This document shows positions 2,906 to 41,281 of a DNA stretch of 64,000 nucleotides, in pieces. The stretch comes from a virus. The position numbers and the translations under genes are program-made. The stretch is taken from IMG/VR virus record IMGVR_UViG_3300027759_000050, positions 64,001 to 128,000 of that record. One strand, given 5' to 3'. The notes beneath the pieces were generated by a model. It was not told where the DNA came from, did not search any database, and saw only the letters and a program-made list of their open reading frames with translations. How positions within the stretch are numbered: position 1 is the stretch's first letter; every line of letters starts with the position of its first letter.

Positions 2906-3669
2906 TATATTCCTAATTTATCGCAGGCAACAATCCATGATTTAACCAAACTGCTGCGAACAATATCGTCTGGTGTAAATCCAATTTCAGTAAACTCATT
3001 CATATGTCTCGCAACATTCAAAAACTCCGCAAGGCCTGATATATCATTCCTACTCTTAATTAGGTCATTCTGTTTCAGGTCGCCAACAAAGATAATCTTA
3101 GAACGGTGACCTACACGGGAGATAACAGAACTCAATTCGTGAAAGGTCATTGACTGACATTCATCTACAATAATGATAGAGTTATCAATAGAGATACCAC
3201 GAATAGCGGTAGTTGAAATGAATCTAGCGTAACCTTGTTCCTTTAATCTTTCCCATGCATCAGAACGACCAAAAAGTGTCTCACAAATTTCTTTGTAAGG
3301 CACTTCATAAATCTCCATCTTTTCTTCTAGTGTACCTGGAACAAAACCTTGGTCCCTTACCTGTACAGCAGAGCGAACAACTACAACATGAGTGAATGGA
3401 TTATCTTTGTTTAATACTTCTTCGATTGCACGATATAAGGCTAAAAATGTTTTACCTACACCTGGTGATCCTAATAGGCCAATAAAGTAATCACCTGTTT
3501 TGTATGCATCAAAGAACTTTTGTTGATTTTGTGTTAGTGCTTCAAATGTTTTTAAATGGTCTAATTTTATTTTTAGTGAGTTTGAAACGGGTTGATGTCT
3601 GTGTGTTGTTGAATCACCTTCAATTGAATCATCACGTTTTTGTATTGCTGTTTTTCTATTGGTTGCCAT
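2905..3669 (-). CDS. phoH: PhoH-like ATPase
   Basis: GSPGVGKT, GFVPG..EEK, RG.S, VDECQ, GD..QND, DIVRS motifs. Confidence 0.92.
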   Translation of the reverse strand: MATNRKTAIQKRDDSIEGDSTTHRHQPVSNSLKIKLDHLKTFEALTQNQQKFFDAYKTGDYFIGLLGSPGVGKTFLALYRAIEEVLNKDNPFTHVVVVRSAVQVRDQGFVPGTLEEKMEIYEVPYKEICETLFGRSDAWERLKEQGYARFISTTAIRGISIDNSIIIVDECQSMTFHELSSVISRVGHRSKIIFVGDLKQNDLIKSRNDISGLAEFLNVARHMNEFTEIGFTPDDIVRSSLVKSWIVACDKLGI

Positions 3670-32929: not shown

Positions 32930-33271
32930 TCACGTTTCTTGAAATTTGTCAAATATTCCATCCATAAGTCTACCAGATGTTGTTGTTTTTTTGCAAATGA
33001 CTCCATAAAAATCCAACGGAATTAACATGGACATATATTCCAACGGTGCGGCCAGAATTGCATCAAATCTCTCTAAATCATCAATGTCTCCGTCTTCAGT
33101 TTCTCTGAACAATATAACATCATAACAATCACCTAAAACACTGCCAGGTACTTTTTCACCAGCTTCTTTCAATTCATTAACTTCAATGTGAAGTGAATCT
33201 TCTTCTTCACCTGGCAGAAACATAAATGTGTGAAAATTTGCCTTATCAAATTTCTTTAAGTAGTCTAGCAT
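32930..33271 (-). CDS. Hypothetical acidic protein
   Basis: ORF in operon. Confidence 0.65.
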   Translation of the reverse strand: MLDYLKKFDKANFHTFMFLPGEEEDSLHIEVNELKEAGEKVPGSVLGDCYDVILFRETEDGDIDDLERFDAILAAPLEYMSMLIPLDFYGVICKKTTTSGRLMDGIFDKFQET

Positions 33272-33677
33272 TATAATCCTTAATGTGTGATTTTCTTACT
33301 CTAACCATAATCCAGCTATTGTAATATTCTTCACTCTCCATAACTTTGTGTGCAAATTGTTCTTTTGCTTCAACATAACTACATTCACCTTTTGATTTAC
33401 ATAGATGTAGTATTTCTCTTTTGAATTTATCTTTTCCATAGAGTACAACATCTTTTTGTAATTCTTCACTACTTCCATAATAAGTTGGCCAGTCACTAGC
33501 CACTTTATATTTTTTCTTTTTGCCTTTTACTTGTCTTGTTTTGGAGAAATAGAAAAGTTTCTTACCAATGTATTTTCTATTTGTTTCTAGGTTTGTTATC
33601 ATGTATACAAACCCGTAACTATCTCCAATCAAATCTTCTGCAAAGTCTGAGTCTTTATATAACCAGTTTATTCCCAT
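33246..33677 (-). CDS. Short GIY-YIG nuclease (Seg-like catalytic domain only)
   Basis: GFVY.ITN....KYIGKK, YYGSS, F.REIL, YYN. Confidence 0.8.
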   Translation of the reverse strand: MGINWLYKDSDFAEDLIGDSYGFVYMITNLETNRKYIGKKLFYFSKTRQVKGKKKKYKVASDWPTYYGSSEELQKDVVLYGKDKFKREILHLCKSKGECSYVEAKEQFAHKVMESEEYYNSWIMVRVRKSHIKDYNARLLKEI

Positions 33678-33877: not shown

Positions 33878-34864
33878 TTAGTTTGCCCATACATCACCCC
33901 AATCTCCAGACAAAGCACCTTTTGCATAATCGGTTGCTCTGTTCTCAAAAAAGTTTGTATGCGTTGGAGCATTAATCATTTCTTCAACCCATGGTAATGG
34001 GTTTTTCTTAACTTTAAAGATACCTTTCAAACTCAACGAAATCAATCTACGGTCAGCAATGTAACGAATGTACTTCTTAACATCTTCCGCAGATAGACCT
34101 TCCATAGCACCCATATTGAAAGCTAAATCAATAAACTTATCTTCAAGTTCAACCATCTTTTCTGCGATAGTATAGATACGAGATTTCAGTTCATCATTCC
34201 AAATTTCTGGATTCTCACCTATGTATGTTCTAAACAATTTAATCATGTTCTCAGCATGTTGTGTTTCATCAACGATGGACCAAGTAACAATCTGACCCAT
34301 ACCTTTCATTTTGCCGTGGCGTGGGAAATTCAATAACATAATGAATGAAGAAAACAACTGCATGCCTTCGGTGAATGCAGAGAATACAGCAATGTGTGTT
34401 GCTGTATTTTGTTTAGTTGTATTCTGTTTAGATATGTCGATTACATAATCATGTTTCTCACGCATTTCAGCATACTCAGAGAATTCATTGTATGTTGTTT
34501 CTGGTAGACCAAGAGTTTCAATCAAGTGTGAGTAAGCAGCAACGTGTAGAGCTTCACGAGCAGCAAAACCCAACAACATCATACGCATTTCTGGTTGTGG
34601 GAAATATGGCAAGTAGTTGTTTACATAACCACCAGCAACGTCAATATCTCCTTGTGTGAAGAATCTAAAGATGTGTGTCAAGAATTGTTTTTCTTCGGTC
34701 GATAGTTTGTTTTTCCAATCTTTAACATCTTCCGACATTGGAACTTCTGTATGCAACCAATGTGATTGTTCATGTTTCAACCATGCATCATAAGCCCATG
34801 CGTAGTTGAATGGTTTAAAGTATGTTCGTTCTTGTGTAACGTCTTGTTTTGTTTTTTTAATCAT
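33878..34864 (-). CDS. nrdB: Class Ia ribonucleotide reductase beta subunit
   Basis: FFTQGDIDV, REALH..AY, EGMQLFSSF, DETQH, NFFENRATDY. Confidence 0.95.
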   Translation of the reverse strand: MIKKTKQDVTQERTYFKPFNYAWAYDAWLKHEQSHWLHTEVPMSEDVKDWKNKLSTEEKQFLTHIFRFFTQGDIDVAGGYVNNYLPYFPQPEMRMMLLGFAAREALHVAAYSHLIETLGLPETTYNEFSEYAEMREKHDYVIDISKQNTTKQNTATHIAVFSAFTEGMQLFSSFIMLLNFPRHGKMKGMGQIVTWSIVDETQHAENMIKLFRTYIGENPEIWNDELKSRIYTIAEKMVELEDKFIDLAFNMGAMEGLSAEDVKKYIRYIADRRLISLSLKGIFKVKKNPLPWVEEMINAPTHTNFFENRATDYAKGALSGDWGDVWAN

Positions 34865-34876
34865 TTCTTTCTTTCT

Positions 34877-35587
34877 TTAATTCCAGTATTTTGAGTGATT
34901 TATGTTGTCCCAGTATTTTTTATTATTTCTATTCCAAAAATTCTTGATTAGGTATAAAGCCATACCAAAGTAACCCATTTTTTGAAATCTTCTACTATCT
35001 TGGCCAACATAATGATTGACTAATTTAAACTTCTTTGTATCATACATCTTTGACAGGAAAAAGTCTTCACTTGTTCCATACTTCTCAGCAAAGCCACCAT
35101 ATTCTTCAAATTTATCTCGGCGTGTAAGCATGAATGCACCAACAGCAAAAGGAACTTTGTAACTCATTATACGGTTTACAAAATTGAATGTCATAAATCC
35201 AATCTGTGCTGTTTTGTTCTTATCATAACACTTTATATAGAGTCCAACAAGGTCGAGGTTGTTTGATTCCAATTCATCAACTGCATCACGAATAACCATG
35301 TCACTAAAAAATCTCACATCGGCGTCAATAAACAAAATGTAAGGAGTAGTGACTAGTTTTGCACCATTATTCTTGGCAATTGAAACTGGTCCACCTTCAA
35401 TAACTTCAACATTTAAATTACCTTTATAAAAATCGATAGTATCTCTTGTGGCGTCCGTAGAACAATCAGCAATAATAATTCTTGTATTACCTATGTTCTG
35501 TCTCTTTAGGTTGAGTAACAGATGAAAAATATATCTTTCTTCATTCTTGCAAGGAATAACAATAGTAATTTTATCACTCAGCATCAT
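34877..35587 (-). CDS. GT2 glycosyltransferase
   Basis: IVIPCKNE, AD.STD.T, A.N.GA, FIDAD, GGF, SED. Confidence 0.88.
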   Translation of the reverse strand: MMLSDKITIVIPCKNEERYIFHLLLNLKRQNIGNTRIIIADCSTDATRDTIDFYKGNLNVEVIEGGPVSIAKNNGAKLVTTPYILFIDADVRFFSDMVIRDAVDELESNNLDLVGLYIKCYDKNKTAQIGFMTFNFVNRIMSYKVPFAVGAFMLTRRDKFEEYGGFAEKYGTSEDFFLSKMYDTKKFKLVNHYVGQDSRRFQKMGYFGMALYLIKNFWNRNNKKYWDNINHSKYWN

Positions 35588-36338
35588 TATCTGATCCTTT
35601 TGTCCAAGTGATTATTTCCCATTTACCGTCATGGTGTTCTACCAATGCAGTACAACTTTCAACCCAATCACCATCATTCATATAAACAACACCATTAATA
35701 TCCTTAATTTCCGCCTTGTGTATATGGCCACAAATTATACCATCATATCCACGTTTTTTGCAATAGTTAGATAGATTATACTCAAACTTGAACATAAAGT
35801 CAACAGCTTTTTTCACACGCTGTTTCAGATACTGACTTAAACTCCAATATCCAAAACCAAACTTATGTCTGAACCAATTAAATTTGGAATTTAAACTCAA
35901 AATTAAATCGTATGCTCTATCACCTAAGAATGCTAACCAAGGAGCCAATCTTGTGATACCATCAAACAAATCTCCATGAACAACAAGGTAATGTTTACCG
36001 TCAGCACCAATATGTTCTATTTGATTATGTATTTCAACTAGACCAAAACTGAATCCATAGGGAATCATAGGTCTTAGGAATTCATCGTGATTACCTGCCA
36101 CATACACTACTCTAGTCCCGCGCTTGGCATGGCCAAGAATTCTACGAACAACATTAGTGTGGCTTTGTTTCCACCTCCATTTGTTCTGTTGTATTCTCCA
36201 TGCATCAATAATGTCACCCACAAGATAAAGAGTGTCGCAACTATTATGTTTTAAAAAGTTATTCAATCTATCTGCTTGACAATCTTTGGTTCCTAAGTGA
36301 ACATCAGAAATGAATATACTTCTATATGTCTTTTGCAT
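35574..36338 (-). CDS. PlcP/LpxH-like metallophosphoesterase
   Basis: ISDVHLG, GDIID, GNHD, HGD, CGHIH, NDGDWVESCTALVE. Confidence 0.8.
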   Translation of the reverse strand: MQKTYRSIFISDVHLGTKDCQADRLNNFLKHNSCDTLYLVGDIIDAWRIQQNKWRWKQSHTNVVRRILGHAKRGTRVVYVAGNHDEFLRPMIPYGFSFGLVEIHNQIEHIGADGKHYLVVHGDLFDGITRLAPWLAFLGDRAYDLILSLNSKFNWFRHKFGFGYWSLSQYLKQRVKKAVDFMFKFEYNLSNYCKKRGYDGIICGHIHKAEIKDINGVVYMNDGDWVESCTALVEHHDGKWEIITWTKGSDNDAE

Positions 36339-36347
36339 TTTTTAAAT

Positions 36348-36593
36348 TTATGTTGTTAACCAAATTTCCAAATCGTTCTTAGTTTTCAAACCGGTCATTC
36401 TCTTAACTTCAATATTTTCATTCATCATTACAAGAGTCGGCACAGACCTAATACCAAACTCAACTGCAATATCAGAATATTTGTCAATGTCGATTATCTC
36501 AATTAAAGTATCTCCTTTGACTTCTTCTAAAATAGCAGCCATTGATTTACATGGCCTGCACCACTCTGCTGTGAATCTTAAAATTCTTTTCAT
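36348..36593 (-). CDS. Thioredoxin
   Basis: WCRPC, IRSVPT. Confidence 0.9.
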   Translation of the reverse strand: MKRILRFTAEWCRPCKSMAAILEEVKGDTLIEIIDIDKYSDIAVEFGIRSVPTLVMMNENIEVKRMTGLKTKNDLEIWLTT

Positions 36594-36594
36594 T

Positions 36595-37239
36595 TTATTT
36601 CTCCGTTAATTTATTAACAAATTCCAATAATAACTTATGGTGTCTGCCCTCATGCCAATATTGTTTTAATTTCTTGTTATCATACCACCATTCCAAAGAA
36701 TCTAAACAGGCACCCATAACACCAATTTTACCTTGTCTAATACACATTGGTTCTTTATTATAATATGTGCTTACTATTTCTGAATGACTAAGGTCTCCTA
36801 CAAACGTACAGCCGTCACGGAAGAATATTTGTTCTTCTTCACCTTCCCACATACAATGTGCAGCAATGTTAAAACTTCTCATGATGTCGGCGGTAGGCCT
36901 TTTGATATATTGTACAGGTTCTGCACCTTTTAAGATGTCAAAATAGTTTGGACCAGCCCAATAAGCACCAACACATATACCAAGATATGCGCCACCATTT
37001 TCAACAAATTTAGCTACTGCGTTTGCTCTTTTCCTAGGAAACATATGAAAATAATCATCTGCATCACCAACACCTCCAGGAAATGCCAACATATCAACAC
37101 ACTCAAATGTTTCTTCTGTACATTGTTCTTTTTTAAAGATTTTAATATTAAAATGTGGTGACAGTGCTTCAATCACACCATCAACACAAGATAGTGATTC
37201 TTTATTTCGGTCATCTTGGAATAGAGCTATAGTTTTCAT
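36595..37239 (-). CDS. Stand-alone BPL_N / class I GATase-like domain protein
   Basis: FPGG.G, FV..GG.YLGIC.GAY.A. Confidence 0.75.
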   Translation of the reverse strand: MKTIALFQDDRNKESLSCVDGVIEALSPHFNIKIFKKEQCTEETFECVDMLAFPGGVGDADDYFHMFPRKRANAVAKFVENGGAYLGICVGAYWAGPNYFDILKGAEPVQYIKRPTADIMRSFNIAAHCMWEGEEEQIFFRDGCTFVGDLSHSEIVSTYYNKEPMCIRQGKIGVMGACLDSLEWWYDNKKLKQYWHEGRHHKLLLEFVNKLTEK

Positions 37240-37481
37240 TTTATTAATCTCCGTCTTAAAATCATACCAACGAAAGTACCACAAAATGCACCTGCACCGG
37301 CGGGAATTAATAACCAATGGTCAACTGTATAATTTATAACTGCAACACAAGCAATAACGAAAACTATAGAAGCCCATATACTGGCATTAATTACTTTTTC
37401 TTCTTGTACCGATTTCAAATAGTAAGTATAAAATATGTCGGTAAAAAATACAGCAAAAAATGTCAGTATATACTCAAACAT
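37236..37481 (-). CDS. Small membrane protein
   Basis: Three hydrophobic segments, GAF.GT. Confidence 0.7.
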   Translation of the reverse strand: MFEYILTFFAVFFTDIFYTYYLKSVQEEKVINASIWASIVFVIACVAVINYTVDHWLLIPAGAGAFCGTFVGMILRRRLIK

Positions 37482-37483
37482 AA

Positions 37484-39268
37484 TTAACCTTCACAAGCTA
37501 TACAATCGTTACCTTGTGCAATTTGTGTCATATCTATTTCTTTAATGACTTGTCTTTCAATTCTCTTTGAAACTTTATCAGCTTTGCCAATCTTCTCTGA
37601 ACGGCAGTAGTACAATGTCTTCAATCCTTTTTTCCATGCCATAAAATGGATAGCATGAAGATATTTGATGTTAACGTCTGGCCTGAAGAATAGATTCAGT
37701 GACTGTGCTTGGTCAATGTATACCTGTCTATCGGCAGCCAAATCAATTACCCAACGCTGGTCAATTTCCATAGATGTTTTGAATACCGCTTTTTGATTTT
37801 CATCTAAGATATTCAAATGTTGGACAGAACCATCATTAGCAATAATAGAAGACCACACTTCATTATATTCTTCTTCTGTTTGTGTCAATCCTTTAATGAT
37901 TATATCAAGCCATCTGTTCTTATTTAAAAATGATCCAGATAAAGTGTCCTGACGGTAAGCGTTAGCACGGTAAGGCTCTATACTAGGACTAGTATTTCGC
38001 ATAATGATAGATGAAGAAGCATTTGGAGCAATAGCCATAAGATGACTGAAACGCTTGCCAGTACCAAGAGCATCTGGAGCTTCACCACGTTCTTTACCCA
38101 AAGTGAGATTAGCTTCATCTAATTTCTCTCTTATTGACTTAAAGATTCTATTGTTTGCGACCTTGGCCATAACTCCTTCAAAAGCGATTCCGTTTCGTTG
38201 GAGGTAGGCATGAAAGCCCAAGGCGCCAACGCCAATAGAGCGTTCACGAGCGGCAGAATACCTAGCACGTTGAATTGTATCAGGAGCATTATCAATAAAA
38301 TACTGCAAAACATTATCCAGCATTTCTGCAACATCTCTGAGAAATAATGGTTCATCTTTCCATTCATCGTAGTTCTCCAGATTTAACGAGGAAAGGCAAC
38401 AAACAGCTGTTCTTTCTTTATCTGTCGGTAAAATGATTTCTGAACAAAGATTAGATTGGTGTACTTTTAGTCCTTTGTCCTTCAACCATTGCGGAAGCAT
38501 TCTATTACTTGTATCAATGAAGTGGATGTAAGGTTCACCTGTGTGCATACGCAATTCAAGAATCTGTTGCCAAAGGTGTTTAGCTGAAACAGTTTCACGA
38601 ATTACACCACTATATGGATCAACTAGATTCCAAGAATCATCCGCTGTTGGATCCAACATACAGTTTTCAATCAACTGCATAAAGTCATCTGTGATATTTA
38701 TTCCGTGATGGAGATTCAAGCAACGAACATTTGGGTCACCTGTGGGCTTACGCATTTCTAGAAAAGCTGTAATATCTGGATGAGAAATATCAAGATAAGC
38801 GGCATAACTACCACGGCGAGTCCTACCTTGTCTATAAGCGAGAGATGATGCATCATAGATTTTAAGGTGGGGCATAACTCCAGTAGATTTATCATCCGCT
38901 GAGCGAATGCCAAAGCCGATGCCGACACCGCCGCCGAACATTGAGAGCCAATTTGTTTCAGATAGGTTGTCAACTAGACCCTCCGCTGTATCATCGATAA
39001 AATTAAGGAAACACGATATTGGAAGTCCTTTTTTAGAACGACCATAAGATAAAATAGGAGTTGAATAAGATAACCAGTGTTTTGAGGAATAGTCGTACAA
39101 TCGTTGAGTGTGAGCTGGGTCAGTTCCGAAGGCTGCGGAAACGAAGGCAAATCTTTCTTGTGGTGAAGTTTCATCATCTTTCATGTAAGACTCTTTAAGT
39201 CTTTTTATTCCTAATTCATCAAAGAGTTTATCTCTTTCTAAATCTATATTTATACCCATGTATTCCAT
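37484..39268 (-). CDS. nrdA: Class Ia ribonucleotide reductase alpha subunit (no ATP cone)
   Basis: PISC, GGGVG, RRG, SNLCSEI, APNASSS, LKTLYY, C-terminal CIAC. Confidence 0.95.
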   Translation of the reverse strand: MEYMGINIDLERDKLFDELGIKRLKESYMKDDETSPQERFAFVSAAFGTDPAHTQRLYDYSSKHWLSYSTPILSYGRSKKGLPISCFLNFIDDTAEGLVDNLSETNWLSMFGGGVGIGFGIRSADDKSTGVMPHLKIYDASSLAYRQGRTRRGSYAAYLDISHPDITAFLEMRKPTGDPNVRCLNLHHGINITDDFMQLIENCMLDPTADDSWNLVDPYSGVIRETVSAKHLWQQILELRMHTGEPYIHFIDTSNRMLPQWLKDKGLKVHQSNLCSEIILPTDKERTAVCCLSSLNLENYDEWKDEPLFLRDVAEMLDNVLQYFIDNAPDTIQRARYSAARERSIGVGALGFHAYLQRNGIAFEGVMAKVANNRIFKSIREKLDEANLTLGKERGEAPDALGTGKRFSHLMAIAPNASSSIIMRNTSPSIEPYRANAYRQDTLSGSFLNKNRWLDIIIKGLTQTEEEYNEVWSSIIANDGSVQHLNILDENQKAVFKTSMEIDQRWVIDLAADRQVYIDQAQSLNLFFRPDVNIKYLHAIHFMAWKKGLKTLYYCRSEKIGKADKVSKRIERQVIKEIDMTQIAQGNDCIACEG

Positions 39269-39280
39269 CTTTATTCCTTA

Positions 39281-39643
39281 TTATTTTTTCAAAATACTTT
39301 TAATATCAGGCGGAGTCCAACCTTCAGGTTTTAGAACTTTTCCATCTGCTCTTTTTAATACTTTTCCAGTTTCATCGTCAATTTTGGCCAAATTACTTCT
39401 TGCAACTTCATTCCAAACATCTTGTTGTGGAATTTGCAAAGTGTGTTCTAATCCCTCAATTACCCATTTTAAATCTGCACAACCATCTGCAATATCCACC
39501 ATATTTCCGCGAAAAAAGGCATTCATTAATTCATCAAACTCTTCCCGAATTAAGGCCATATAAAGGTTTGATTGTTTTCCAAATCCTGTTTCTTTTTGGT
39601 CACAAGCGTCCATAAATCGTTTAACATCATCAGAACTATTCAT
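39281..39643 (-). CDS. MazG/PRA-PH-like NTP pyrophosphatase
   Basis: LI.EE..E, D...DL, EV.RSN..K, DGKVLKP. Confidence 0.85.
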   Translation of the reverse strand: MNSSDDVKRFMDACDQKETGFGKQSNLYMALIREEFDELMNAFFRGNMVDIADGCADLKWVIEGLEHTLQIPQQDVWNEVARSNLAKIDDETGKVLKRADGKVLKPEGWTPPDIKSILKK

Positions 39644-40283
39644 TTGTATACTCCATAATCATTGGGAAAATTGGTTCAATTGCGGCCGCACATGCAAGAG
39701 CTATTTCTTGGTGTTCTTTCTGTGTTCCGTTTGCGCTTCGGAGTTGTATATAGTGGACCCATGACCTAAGGGTTCCGTTCATATACATGCGTGATTTTGT
39801 CATGCCTTCCGGTAAAATTGCACGAGCCTGTTCCTTTGCAATACCGTTGTCGAGGGCCCATTTGTATGTTTTTTGCACTTGTTCTAAAAGTTTATTTTGT
39901 TGAATTTGCCACATATCATCCAGTGTGAAGTCTGTACTAGGCAAACTATTTTGCCGATTTTTGGTATCTTGCAATCTTGCTTCACGCAATTCAAAACCAA
40001 GTTGTGATGCATCAGCATATCGTTGTGAAAACTCTTGGAATGAAAAAGAACGGTGACGCAAAATCTGCCTTGCAATGTCACGGGTTGTTTCAATCTCCAA
40101 ACACACCGAAACCACCTCCAACGGTGACCAGTGTTGATTGTTAATCAAGTATCTAACCAATTTCTCAGCAGTCTCTGAGTTGTTCTGGTTCGCTGGATTA
40201 GACACACGGGCCGCGTAGGCAACCTGGTCCATTAAACTTTTACCATCTACTCCCTGAGAGTATGAAATCAAATTTACATTCAT
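39636..40283 (-). CDS. thyX: Flavin-dependent thymidylate synthase
   Basis: H.SPLE, RHRSFSFQEFSQRY, KEQAR..LP. Confidence 0.95.
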   Translation of the reverse strand: MNVNLISYSQGVDGKSLMDQVAYAARVSNPANQNNSETAEKLVRYLINNQHWSPLEVVSVCLEIETTRDIARQILRHRSFSFQEFSQRYADASQLGFELREARLQDTKNRQNSLPSTDFTLDDMWQIQQNKLLEQVQKTYKWALDNGIAKEQARAILPEGMTKSRMYMNGTLRSWVHYIQLRSANGTQKEHQEIALACAAAIEPIFPMIMEYTNE

Positions 40284-41281
40284 ATTTTTTTCCAATTCAC
40301 AAATTCCATTTTAGCCCTAAGATTCACAAAGGTGTGTTTCTCCATTATATCATGTAATTCTTCAATGTCAAATCCAGTTAATACCATATCATTAATGTCT
40401 TTGTCTGTTATGATTCCTGGCCAGACAACGACATTGAAATGGTTATCGACTGCATGTTCCATCAATTTTACGATTTCTTTATTCCTAGGTTCATTGTCGA
40501 AAACTAGTACAATTTTTGATTTGTCCAAATACTCTGCGGCCGATTCCAGTGACGAACTGGCGACAGCTACAGAATTTTTAATAAACATTGAATCGATTGG
40601 TCCTTCAAAGACATATATTGGTTTGTCTTCGTTTACACGGTTGATACCAAACATGCGTGGAACATCGTCCATGAGTTTGATTGTGATGTAACGAATCTTT
40701 GACTGTCCAAGTGCTCGGCCTTGAAATCCAGTCAGGTTCCCTTCTTTATCATAGAAAGGGATGATTAGGCGTTTGTCGCCTTCCATAATATCTTTTTCAA
40801 CTTCAAACGAATCCACAAAAGCCTTGAAGTCATCCGAATAATATAACTGCGAATACATATTTCTTGGTATCATTCTACCCATAACATATTTCTTAGCATA
40901 GTGTTCATCTGGCAACGATTCAATTGTCGGCAAGTCCAATTTCTTGGAAAATACAGGTTTGACCTTCAGTTCTGAAAACTCAGGTTCAGGCGAATTGGTA
41001 TTTGCAGAGTTTTTATACCGTTCCATCTGGTATTCCTCAAGTAGATTAGGATCAACTTGTTTTAGGAAATTATAGAACGATGTGGATACACCACAATTGT
41101 GACACATATAGAAGTAGTCATTCTTCTTGCGATAGACATAACCACGGCATTTGCTTTTGTTTTTCTGTGAGTCTCCACAGAGAGGACACCGAAAATTATA
41201 GAGGTCATCTTTCTTCTTGGAGAACTTCTGTAATTTGGGTGATAGTTGTAATAGAAAATTTCTGTCAATGAAGACGCTCAT
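40280..41281 (-). CDS. 61: DNA primase (gp61)
   Basis: FRCPLCGDS, CHNCG, QGR, EGPIDS, FDNEPRN, KDINDM. Confidence 0.95.
   Translation of the reverse strand: MSVFIDRNFLLQLSPKLQKFSKKKDDLYNFRCPLCGDSQKNKSKCRGYVYRKKNDYFYMCHNCGVSTSFYNFLKQVDPNLLEEYQMERYKNSANTNSPEPEFSELKVKPVFSKKLDLPTIESLPDEHYAKKYVMGRMIPRNMYSQLYYSDDFKAFVDSFEVEKDIMEGDKRLIIPFYDKEGNLTGFQGRALGQSKIRYITIKLMDDVPRMFGINRVNEDKPIYVFEGPIDSMFIKNSVAVASSSLESAAEYLDKSKIVLVFDNEPRNKEIVKLMEHAVDNHFNVVVWPGIITDKDINDMVLTGFDIEELHDIMEKHTFVNLRAKMEFVNWKKI

What the first reader, a model, noticed from the sequence alone, without database searches (positions are those of the whole stretch)
34877..36338. PlcP-like phospholipase plus glycosyltransferase between nrdA and nrdB
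Seen: overlapping phosphoesterase (GNHD, not the GNRD of E. coli LpxH; NDGDWVESCTALVE) and GT2 genes within the dNTP-supply operon; phoH is also in the window. Known: PlcP removes phospholipid head groups under P starvation and partner glycosyltransferases convert the diacylglycerol to glycolipids (the usual partner Agt is GT4, not GT2). Inference: the phage may mine membrane phosphate for DNA synthesis while refilling the membrane with glycolipid.
Basis: partly seen in the sequence, partly recalled or inferred. Interest (0 to 1): 0.7.

Follow-up and report, generated by a model that had tools for sequence, protein, structure and literature searches.

The report
Phage PlcP phospholipase with GT2 partner
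A freshwater T4-like phage carries a true relative of the bacterial enzyme PlcP, which cuts the phosphate head off membrane lipids, coupled to a small sugar-adding enzyme, so it probably turns host phospholipids into phosphorus-free glycolipids; here the pair sits inside the phage's DNA-precursor operon.

Summary
Two overlapping minus-strand genes lie between trx and nrdB of a complete 160.7-kb T4-like lake phage: a 254-aa metallophosphoesterase (35574-36338) and a 236-aa GT2 glycosyltransferase (34877-35587).

The phosphoesterase is not LpxH. It scores 49 and 37 bits against NCBIfam cut-offs of 134 and 190, and has GNHD where LpxH has GNRD. A profile built only from bacterial copies followed by an Agt-type GT4 gene gives it 383 bits, against 41 for an LpxH profile. 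Genomes carrying such copies also have LpxI or a true LpxH.

The pair behaves as a mobile cassette:
- About 58 of 80 related viral loci have MPE+GT2 and 21 have MPE+GT4 (Agt-like). None has both, and one swap replaces only the glycosyltransferase gene.
- GT2 relatives down to 35% identity still sit beside the phosphoesterase in 62 of 63 loci, in either gene order.
- About a third of distinct upstream regions in relatives carry a Pho-box-like repeat plus a late-promoter motif. This window has none, and the nrd placement is specific to its lineage.

The likeliest function is phospholipid-to-glycolipid renovation that frees membrane phosphorus. No activity has been tested. I found no paper describing this, and surveys list viral "lpxH" as an LPS gene. 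This scan has noted the same module on other DNA, in at least 69 genomes.

The parts
35574..36338 (-). PlcP-type (LpxH-like) metallophosphoesterase, 254 aa; predicted phospholipase C
   Evidence: ORF. Pfam Metallophos. LpxH equivalog scores are far below cut-off. All metal-ligand motifs are invariant. Scores 383 bits against a profile of agt-linked cellular copies and 41 bits against an LpxH profile. Nests in the alphaproteobacterial PlcP-like clade. The AF2 model has an LpxH-like fold with a helical cap at residues 122-196.
34877..35587 (-). GT2 (GT-A fold) glycosyltransferase, 236 aa; predicted diacylglycerol glycosyltransferase
   Evidence: ORF. PF00535 71.6 bits and PF13506 (GT21) 37.5 bits. 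D88-x-D90 and D175 are invariant in 82 family members. AF2 pLDDT 96, GT-A fold. The tail at residues 196-236 is rich in aromatic and basic residues. Always found beside the MPE in viral loci.
35574..35587 (-). 14-nt overlap of the MPE stop with the GT2 start, with an AAAGGA motif 9-14 nt upstream of the ATG (likely translational coupling)
   Evidence: Sequence read.
36348..36593 (-). Thioredoxin gene directly upstream (9-nt gap), leaving no room for a promoter or Pho box of the cassette's own; context
33878..34864 (-). nrdB directly downstream (12-nt gap); context
37484..39268 (-). nrdA, upstream gene of the same tightly packed co-directional block (thyX, mazG-like, nrdA, TM, GATase-like, trx, MPE, GT2, nrdB); context
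40344..40371 (-). Perfect sigma-70 consensus (TTGACA-16-TATAAT with TG) before thyX; the only strong promoter-like site heading the block, function untested
2932..3543 (-). phoH, elsewhere in the window; context only

Best explanation
The two genes form a phage-borne membrane lipid renovation cassette. The 254-aa protein is a member of the PlcP family of LpxH-like, metal-dependent phospholipases C. In the infected cell it should cut the phospho-head group from glycerophospholipids, leaving diacylglycerol (DAG) in the membrane. The translationally coupled 236-aa GT2, a soluble GT-A enzyme with an aromatic and basic C-terminal tail suited to the membrane surface, should then glycosylate the DAG. 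This would keep the bilayer intact with phosphorus-free glycolipid. Host phosphatases would release phosphate from the freed head groups, making it available to the phage, whose 160,679-bp genome needs about 321,000 P atoms per copy. In most relatives the cassette has a Pho-box-like repeat and a late-type promoter of its own. In this phage it has neither and is inserted between trx and nrdB, so it is probably transcribed with the nucleotide-supply genes whatever the phosphate status. Shown: family membership, the gene linkage, the GT2/GT4 exchange, and the presence or absence of the regulatory motif. Inferred: substrates, products, timing and benefit.
For: 1. Not LpxH. NCBIfam LpxH models give 48.8 and 36.7 bits against cut-offs of 134 and 190. 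GNHD replaces the LpxH GNRD. In 5 alphaproteobacterial genomes the homologue is the only LpxH-model match (41-62 bits), and 4 of the 5 have LpxI. In 5 gammaproteobacterial genomes a true LpxH (281-339 bits) coexists with this paralogue (28-53 bits).
2. PlcP-type. Cellular homologues (50-59% identity) are followed directly by a GT4. This is the plcP-agt arrangement of Sebastian et al. 2016 (PMC4796936), whose Table S2 lists Kordiimonas and Caulobacter. A profile of 19 such cellular copies scores the window protein at 383 bits, against 41 for an LpxH profile. All 146 phage copies score at least 198 against the first and at most 51 against the second. In the tree, LpxH splits off with support 100 and the phage clade (support 98) nests among alphaproteobacterial copies.
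3. Fold. The top 25 PDB matches are all LpxH, over the whole length including the helical cap that holds lipid in LpxH.
4. Partner. Of 80 viral loci, 58 have MPE+GT2 and 21 have MPE+GT4; none has both. The phage GT4 is 36-42% identical to the GT4 next to cellular plcP. L097 and L119 are about 80% identical in DNA on both sides, and only the glycosyltransferase gene differs.
5. Deep linkage. GT2 relatives at 35-67% identity have an MPE adjacent in 62 of 63 loci, in both gene orders.
6. Phosphate context. pstS lies beside the MPE in Pelagibacter phage Mosig and in uncultured relatives. A TGTMAY-N5-TGTMAY repeat plus TAAATA lies at -38 to -50 in 32 of 102 distinct upstream regions, against a background of 0.001 per 120 nt.
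Against: - No enzyme activity, lipid analysis or expression data exist, and no RNA run holding the stretch was listed.
- I could not compare the protein directly with an experimentally characterised PlcP, because no tool gave me those sequences.
- The GT2 has no characterised close relative. Its fold matches are generic GT-A enzymes. It was not found in 401 alphaproteobacterial genomes. Its nearest cellular relatives, roughly 245-aa GT2s in 40 of 300 sampled Bacteroidota genomes, lie beside lysS and not beside plcP in the loci I read.
- This phage has no pstS and no Pho-box-like site at the cassette.
- PlcP releases a phospho-head group, not phosphate, so a phosphatase that I did not identify is needed.
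- Mosig carries the MPE without any glycosyltransferase nearby, so the sugar step is not obligatory.
- S. meliloti PlcP was reported active only on zwitterionic phospholipids (PMC4796936).
Confidence: 0.7

Rival explanations
1. The chemistry is the same (PlcP-type cleavage followed by glycosylation of DAG), but the benefit lies in the changed membrane itself rather than in phosphorus. Possible benefits are exclusion of competing phages, altered lysis timing or envelope stability, or protection of the infected cell.
For: In this window the cassette has no Pho-box-like site and the genome has no pstS, so expression need not follow phosphate status. PlcP-dependent glycolipids change bacterial surface phenotypes: polymyxin protection in P. 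aeruginosa (PMC8528852) and susceptibility to predators (PMC9457565); both papers are listed and I did not read them in full. Pelagimyophage authors propose surface alteration as the role of phage glycosyltransferases (PMC7029224).
Against: In relatives the cassette is linked to pstS and to Pho-box-like repeats. Those links point to phosphate stress as the selective setting.
Confidence: 0.14
2. The MPE is a PlcP-type lipid phosphoesterase, but the GT2 acts on something other than diacylglycerol, such as a polyprenyl phosphate, an LPS or capsule intermediate, a released head group, or a carotenoid or hopanoid-like lipid.
For: The GT2 hits only generic or below-cut-off models: TIGR04283 64 bits against 182, and weak HpnB and CruG matches. 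Structural neighbours are TarS, a DPMS-like mannosyltransferase and others. Cellular relatives are not plcP-linked in the loci I read.
Against: The GT2 occupies exactly the slot of the Agt-like GT4 and is never present together with it. It stays glued to the MPE down to 35% identity and through inversion of gene order. That pattern is hard to explain unless the two enzymes share a pathway.
Confidence: 0.1
3. The MPE is a real LpxH (UDP-2,3-diacylglucosamine diphosphatase) and the pair modifies lipid A or LPS. This is how automatic annotation and AMG surveys file it.
For: Source databases and GenBank phage records call the homologues LpxH. A virome survey lists viral lpxH under LPS biosynthesis (PMC10653327). 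LpxH is the nearest solved fold.
Against: The protein scores far below both LpxH cut-offs and has GNHD instead of GNRD. It separates from true LpxH with support 100 and a 10-fold difference in profile score. Cellular members coexist with LpxH or LpxI.
Confidence: 0.03
4. The pair serves nucleotide or DNA metabolism, as its place in the nrd operon might suggest. The MPE would be a nucleotide pyrophosphatase or phosphodiesterase and the GT2 would glycosylate modified DNA bases.
For: In this phage the pair sits between trx and nrdB in a thyX-mazG-nrdA block.
Against: This placement occurs only in the closest relatives. Most relatives have the cassette elsewhere. Orthology runs to lipid-pathway genes, and the fold has the LpxH-type lipid cap.
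Confidence: 0.03

Closest known systems
Bacterial PlcP-Agt lipid renovation pathway (S. meliloti SMc00171; Phaeobacter sp. MED193 MED193_17359; Pelagibacter HTCC7211 PB7211_983/PB7211_960; B. cenocepacia BCAL2364/2365), as in PMC4796936 and PMC13691135
   Same: The enzyme family is the same LpxH-like metallophosphoesterase, judged through its agt-linked cellular orthologues. The gene order, phosphoesterase then glycosyltransferase, is the same. Sister phages carry the Agt-like GT4 itself, and relatives are linked to pstS and Pho-box-like sites.
   Different: The cassette is encoded by a lytic T4-like phage. In this window the partner is a 236-aa GT2 and not the GT4 Agt. There is no Pho box, and the cassette is embedded in the nrd operon. 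Activity is untested.
PlcP-Pgt arrangement (processive GT21 glycosyltransferase mlr5650 of Mesorhizobium loti; 'Pgt' neighbours of plcP in Citreicella, Pelagibaca, Rhodobacter; Table S2 of PMC4796936)
   Same: This is a precedent for a GT-A-fold (GT2-clan) glycolipid synthase as the neighbour of plcP. The window GT2 passes the Pfam GT21 threshold over residues 79-189.
   Different: I could make no direct comparison with mlr5650. The phage enzyme is best matched by generic GT2 models and forms a short family of its own, with a conserved C-terminal RRF...GYW tail.
LpxH, UDP-2,3-diacylglucosamine diphosphatase (PDB 5K8K, 5B49, 6PH9)
   Same: Both have the calcineurin-like fold with a helical lipid-binding cap inserted at the same place. 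LpxH is the nearest solved structure.
   Different: LpxH is a distinct paralogue: GNRD against GNHD, a profile score of about 40 bits against about 390 bits for true LpxH, and coexistence in the same genomes.
Phosphate-stress auxiliary genes of T4-like cyanophages and pelagiphages (pstS, phoA, phoH; host PhoB-controlled expression). This comparison rests on my own knowledge of the literature, which I did not re-read here.
   Same: The ecological logic is the same, a phage easing phosphorus limitation of its own replication. Relatives have a Pho-box-like repeat before the gene and pstS beside it.
   Different: The cassette draws on the cell's own membrane rather than on external phosphate. The phage in this window lacks pstS and lacks the box.

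Membership tests
PlcP (LpxH-like metallophosphoesterase phospholipase C) | Calcineurin-like metallophosphoesterase with intact metal-ligand motifs (DxH, GD, GNHD, HGD, GHxH) | tested here: met
   Pfam Metallophos 47.2 bits. D12, H14, D42, N83, H84, D85, H121, D123, H205 and H207 are invariant in 34 diverse members.
PlcP (LpxH-like metallophosphoesterase phospholipase C) | Groups with cellular proteins encoded directly upstream of agt-type GT4 genes, apart from LpxH | tested here: met
   383 bits against a profile of 19 agt-linked cellular copies and 41 bits against an LpxH profile. In the tree, the LpxH split has support 100 and the phage clade nests in the alphaproteobacterial group.
PlcP (LpxH-like metallophosphoesterase phospholipase C) | Strong similarity to an experimentally characterised PlcP (the criterion of Sebastian et al.: BLASTP against MED193_17359 at E<1e-40 for metagenomes, E<1e-20 for isolate genomes) | not testable with these tools
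   No tool returned the characterised sequences. The link is indirect. The homologue in Kordiimonas sp. (55% identity, GT4 downstream) matches the 'Agt' entry for Kordiimonas in their Table S2. The Caulobacter control genome matches the LpxH model only below cut-off and has LpxI.
PlcP (LpxH-like metallophosphoesterase phospholipase C) | Genomic link to a gene for a phosphorus-free lipid (agt, pgt, btaAB, olsF) | tested here: inconclusive
   In the window the partner is a GT2 of unknown acceptor. In 21 of 80 related loci the partner is an Agt-like GT4, 36-42% identical to the neighbours of cellular plcP, and the two partners exchange in place.
PlcP (LpxH-like metallophosphoesterase phospholipase C) | Phosphate-starvation (Pho box) control | tested here: not met
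   There is no box at the window cassette: the gap after trx is 9 nt, and the only pattern match in the window (49682) lies inside an unrelated gene. Relatives do have the repeat, in 32 of 102 upstream regions. PhoB binding is untested.
PlcP (LpxH-like metallophosphoesterase phospholipase C) | Phospholipase C activity releasing diacylglycerol from glycerophospholipids | not testable with these tools
   This needs an enzyme assay or lipidomics.
LpxH (UDP-2,3-diacylglucosamine diphosphatase) | Score over the curated equivalog cut-offs | tested here: not met
   NF003743 gives 48.8 bits against 134, and TIGR01854 gives 36.7 against 190.
LpxH (UDP-2,3-diacylglucosamine diphosphatase) | GNRD motif (Arg in place of the usual His) | tested here: not met
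   The window protein has GNHD, aligned to GNRD of Klebsiella and E. coli LpxH. GNHD is invariant in the family.
LpxH (UDP-2,3-diacylglucosamine diphosphatase) | Serves as the genome's lipid A pyrophosphatase | tested here: not met
   Cellular genomes carrying the homologue also have LpxI (4 of 5 alphaproteobacterial genomes) or a true LpxH (5 of 5 gammaproteobacterial genomes).
Agt (GT4 bifunctional MGDG/GADG synthase) | GT-B fold, GT4 family (PF00534 with PF13439) | tested here: not met
   The window enzyme is GT2 with a GT-A fold. Sister phages do carry the GT4.
GT2 glycosyltransferase (PF00535) | GT-A fold with a DxD motif and a catalytic acidic residue | tested here: met
   PF00535 71.6 bits. 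D88-A-D90 and D175 are invariant in 82 members. AF2 pLDDT 96, with the best matches to GT-A enzymes.
Pgt / GT21 processive diacylglycerol glycosyltransferase | Membership of PF13506 and similarity to mlr5650 | tested here: inconclusive
   PF13506 gives 37.5 bits against a cut-off of 21.7, but only over residues 79-189 and below the generic GT2 score.

The most novel reading that the evidence does not exclude
Membrane-phosphorus mining by a virus-encoded PlcP is a common trait of lake and marine T4-like phages that has gone unrecognised. Over 599 viral contig hits were found with the MPE query alone, and the gene is filed in surveys as 'lpxH'. The 236-aa GT2 would define a new, minimal, largely phage-borne family of diacylglycerol glycosyltransferases that has repeatedly displaced Agt. 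In this lineage the cassette has lost phosphate control and become part of the constitutive dNTP-supply programme.
Probability: 0.45. Interest if true: 0.75.

Novelty: new variant of a known kind. Interest (0 to 1): 0.62.

Why it matters
If the reading is right, infection by abundant aquatic phages rewrites the host's membrane lipids and opens a phosphorus pool that virus models ignore.

A rough estimate from general cell geometry (my own, not a tool result) shows the scale. The three phospholipid leaflets of a cell with about 1 square micrometre of surface hold on the order of 2 million P atoms. That is roughly the phosphorus of six copies of this 160.7-kb genome.

Three consequences would follow:
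- Part of the glycolipid measured in phosphorus-poor waters could be made under viral control.
- A widespread "lpxH / LPS biosynthesis" auxiliary gene would need re-annotation.
- The GT2 could be a new, very small glycolipid synthase.

The question is directly testable: Pelagibacter phage Mosig, a cultured relative, carries a homologue next to pstS.

Tried and rejected
- The long contigs (336-360 kb) that first looked cellular proved to be IMG/VR viral records. I dropped the idea of a recent capture from a host at 88% identity.
- The five best 'genome' hits are MAGs labelled Haliscomenobacter, Polynucleobacter, Fischerella, Gammaproteobacteria and Bacteroidia. They carry phage-type cassettes and look like mis-binned phage contigs, so they give no clue to the host.
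- Class- and phylum-wide genome searches return no taxon names. I therefore could not pick out Sinorhizobium, Phaeobacter or Pelagibacter orthologues.
- The GT2 was not found in 401 alphaproteobacterial genomes at E<=1e-12.
- Scans for distant GT2 relatives gave little. P0245 and P0253 found nothing in viral contigs. The single metagenome scan returned one 2.5-kb contig of use.
- Bacteroidota GT2 relatives gave no clue to function.
- Cluster names were only 'LpxH' or 'glycosyltransferase involved in cell wall biosynthesis'.
- Promoter-like sites in the operon are no more frequent than in shuffled sequence.
- No RNA holder was listed among sequencing runs, and I did not lay reads.
- Literature searches for a phage PlcP found nothing.
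- The careful tree search did not finish, so I used the quick IQ-TREE tree.
Full report
WHAT IS THERE. The window is bases 64001-128000 of a complete IMG/VR virus record of 160,679 bp with direct terminal repeats. It is a T4-like myovirus, and its DNA is held by freshwater and lake metagenomes from many studies. On the minus strand a tightly packed, co-directional block reads:
- thyX (39636-40295)
- a MazG-like gene (39281-39643)
- nrdA (37484-39268)
- an 81-aa membrane protein (37236-37481)
- a BPL_N/GATase-like protein (36595-37317)
- thioredoxin (36348-36593)
- the 254-aa metallophosphoesterase, MPE (35574-36338)
- the 236-aa GT2 (34877-35587)
- nrdB (33878-34864)
- a SegE-type GIY-YIG endonuclease (33246-33677)

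The MPE starts 9 nt after the trx stop. The GT2 starts 14 nt before the MPE stop, behind an AAAGGA motif. nrdB follows after 12 nt. The only strong promoter-like site heading the block is a perfect sigma-70 consensus before thyX, although such sites are no more frequent here than in shuffled sequence. phoH lies at 2932-3543. The genome has no pstS.

THE PHOSPHOESTERASE IS PlcP-TYPE, NOT LpxH. The two NCBIfam LpxH equivalogs score 48.8 and 36.7 bits, against cut-offs of 134 and 190. The alignment to solved LpxH chains is weak (E about 2e-4) and shows GNRD in LpxH where the phage protein has GNHD. Across 34 members down to 37% identity the DxH, GD, GNHD, HGD and GHxH motifs and a C-terminal YxNxGDWxE block are invariant, so the enzyme looks active.

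Cellular relatives at 50-59% identity are all Alphaproteobacteria, with Gammaproteobacteria at 39-46%. In a sample of 401 alphaproteobacterial genomes, 144 have a homologue, none above 57% identity (the tally includes one unpublished genome, G245, on which nothing rests). In five alphaproteobacterial genomes this gene is the only match to the LpxH model (41-62 bits), and four of the five have LpxI. In five gammaproteobacterial genomes a true LpxH (281-339 bits) coexists with this paralogue (28-53 bits).

In 20 of the cellular loci the gene is followed directly by a GT4 glycosyltransferase. That is the plcP-agt arrangement ('type 2') of Sebastian et al. 2016 (PMC4796936). Their Table S2 lists Kordiimonas and Caulobacter among PlcP carriers with Agt nearby, and names BtaBA, Agt, Pgt and OlsF as the known neighbours.

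A profile built only from 19 agt-linked cellular proteins scores the window protein at 383 bits, and a profile of six true LpxH scores it at 41. All 146 phage copies score at least 198 against the first and at most 51 against the second, while true LpxH show the reverse. In a quick maximum-likelihood tree, LpxH separates with support 100. The 68 close phage copies form one clade (support 98) nested among alphaproteobacterial sequences, next to a group that holds Hyphomonadaceae, Parvularcula and Pelagibacter phage Mosig. The AlphaFold model (pLDDT 85) has a helical insertion at residues 122-196. Its 25 best PDB matches are all LpxH, aligned over the whole length and about four orders of magnitude better in E-value than any other metallophosphoesterase. 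That fits a diacyl-lipid substrate.

I could not compare the protein directly with an experimentally characterised PlcP, because no tool returned those sequences. This one membership criterion remains indirect.

THE PAIR IS A MOBILE CASSETTE WITH AN INTERCHANGEABLE GLYCOSYLTRANSFERASE. The MPE query found more than 599 stretches in IMG/VR, and I examined the 80 best loci. In 58 of them the MPE is followed by the GT2. In 21 it is followed by a GT4 of about 335 aa (PF00534 plus PF13439) that is 36-42% identical to the GT4 next to cellular plcP. No locus has both. The two earliest-branching phage copies are GT4-linked, and the partner label changes at least 4-5 times on well-supported branches.

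One swap can be read directly. L097 (GT2) and L119 (GT4) are about 80% identical in DNA up to the end of the MPE gene, and again from a few hundred bases after the glycosyltransferase. Only that gene differs.

Starting instead from a distant GT2 relative (P0430), I retrieved 63 viral loci with a full-length GT2 at 35-67% identity to the window's. In 62 of them an MPE at 37-50% identity lies directly adjacent, in the order MPE-GT2 or GT2-MPE; the one exception is cut off by the end of its contig. Linkage that survives this much divergence and an inversion of gene order argues that the two enzymes work in one pathway. Occupation of the Agt slot argues that the pathway is glycosylation of diacylglycerol.

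WHAT THE GT2 IS. It is a compact GT-A enzyme (pLDDT 96). D88-x-D90 and D175 are invariant, as is a C-terminal RRF...G motif. Its 41-residue tail has 10 aromatic, 8 basic and only 2 acidic residues. I read that tail as a membrane-interface anchor, which is an inference.

The GT2 passes the Pfam GT21 threshold over part of its length; GT21 is the family of the plcP-linked processive glycolipid synthase Pgt. Otherwise it matches only generic models or models below cut-off. Its relatives in the protein atlas are mostly viral. It was not found in 401 alphaproteobacterial genomes. The nearest cellular relatives I found are single-copy GT2s of about 245 aa in 40 of 300 sampled Bacteroidota genomes (108-138 bits, against 288 bits for the phage copies). 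They lie beside lysS and have no known function. The acceptor and the sugar therefore remain unknown.

PHOSPHATE CONTEXT AND WHAT IS SPECIAL HERE. In Pelagibacter phage Mosig the homologue (51% identity) lies back to back with a phosphate-binding protein gene. In uncultured relatives pstS lies directly upstream. Following a lead in earlier notes of this scan, I found an 11-bp-phased direct repeat, TGTMAY-N5-TGTMAY, which resembles the enterobacterial Pho box (my own knowledge of the consensus). It lies at -38 to -50 in 32 of 102 distinct MPE upstream regions, each time followed by TAAATA, the core of T4-type late promoters. In the rest of the same loci the repeat occurs 16 times in 1.9 Mb.

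The window has no such element at the cassette. Its only pattern match lies inside an unrelated gene on the other strand. The cassette has three kinds of placement:
- between trx and nrdB, in the window and its nearest relatives (96-98% identity);
- 0.1-1.3 kb after nrdB, in five others, where trx and nrdB are adjacent;
- elsewhere, in the majority.

So the 'dNTP operon' position is a recent insertion specific to this lineage. It has exchanged phosphate-responsive late control for co-transcription with the nucleotide-supply genes.

MECHANISM PROPOSED. The MPE cuts the phospho-head group from host glycerophospholipids. The coupled GT2 converts the diacylglycerol into a bilayer-forming glycolipid, so the cell stays intact until lysis. 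Host phosphatases release phosphate from the head groups, and the phosphate supports synthesis of phage nucleotides. A rough estimate from general cell geometry (my own, not a tool result) puts membrane phospholipid phosphorus in a cell with about 1 square micrometre of surface at around 2 million atoms. One phage genome needs about 321,000.

Points against:
- There are no activity or expression data.
- The GT2 is uncharacterised.
- The phosphatase step is not identified.
- Mosig lacks a glycosyltransferase next to its copy.
- S. meliloti PlcP was reported active only on zwitterionic lipids.

Rivals are the same chemistry for a surface or envelope benefit rather than phosphorus (0.14), a different acceptor for the GT2 (0.10), a true LpxH/LPS role (0.03), and a role in nucleotide or DNA modification (0.03).

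NOVELTY. The bacterial pathway is well known. In the paper library I found no description of a virus-encoded PlcP. The pelagimyophage survey discusses glycosyltransferases only as LPS modifiers, and a virome study lists viral lpxH under LPS biosynthesis. GenBank records of Mosig and S-SRM01 call the gene a UDP-2,3-diacylglucosamine hydrolase. This scan has noted the same module before on other DNA: 78 notes in at least 69 genomes. Those notes are not independent evidence, and I re-derived the points I use here. I rate the finding a new variant of a known kind.

Noticed in passing
window 36595-37317 (-): A 240-aa protein with a partial BPL_N / class-I glutamine-amidotransferase-like match (45.9 bits) recurs within a few kb of the MPE cassette in about 24 of 80 related viral loci. 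It appears on either strand and on either side, also where no nrd genes are near. Its function is unknown, and it may be a third travelling companion of the cassette.
   Followed up: partly
window 37236-37481 (-): An 81-aa predicted membrane protein lies between nrdA and the GATase-like gene. It is conserved (53-100% identity) at the same place in relatives and overlaps the annotated start of the next ORF.
   Followed up: no
P0115, P0012, P0087; L055:6001-6885, L089:1621-2505: Most relatives encode a 294-aa MPE with an extra Ser/Thr/Arg-rich C-terminal tail of about 40 aa, and the glycosyltransferase then starts about 165 nt downstream. The window's protein (254 aa) lacks the tail, and the GT2 overlaps it instead.
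   Followed up: partly
L071:6901-7791, L088:6901-7791: In two relatives a RimK-type ATP-grasp ligase gene (PF08443, 156 bits) is inserted between the MPE and the Agt-like GT4.
   Followed up: no
L003, L004, L005, L006, L007 (genome contigs): Contigs carrying the phage cassette are binned into MAGs labelled Haliscomenobacter, Polynucleobacter, Fischerella, Gammaproteobacteria and Bacteroidia. These are probably mis-binned phage contigs in public MAGs.
   Followed up: partly
window 33246-33677 (-): A SegE-type GIY-YIG homing endonuclease (PF19835, 136 bits) lies just downstream of nrdB, close to the point where the cassette was inserted in this lineage. Such endonucleases could help local gene shuffling, which is speculation on my part.
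   Followed up: no
L001 (Pelagibacter phage Mosig, MT647606.1 94129-94866): This cultured pelagimyophage carries a 51%-identical MPE divergent from pstS and with no glycosyltransferase nearby. Its host HTCC1062 is said to lack plcP (PMC4796936), which makes it a ready experimental system.
   Followed up: partly
L231-L239 (Bacteroidota genomes): A single-copy GT2 of about 245 aa, the nearest cellular relative of the phage GT2 that I found, occurs in 40 of 300 sampled Bacteroidota genomes. It often lies next to lysS and an unannotated 320-aa gene. Its function is unknown.
   Followed up: partly
window 40344-40371 (-): A perfect extended sigma-70 consensus promoter (TTGACA-16-TATAAT with TG) lies directly before thyX. 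It is the likely early promoter of the whole nucleotide-metabolism block.
   Followed up: no
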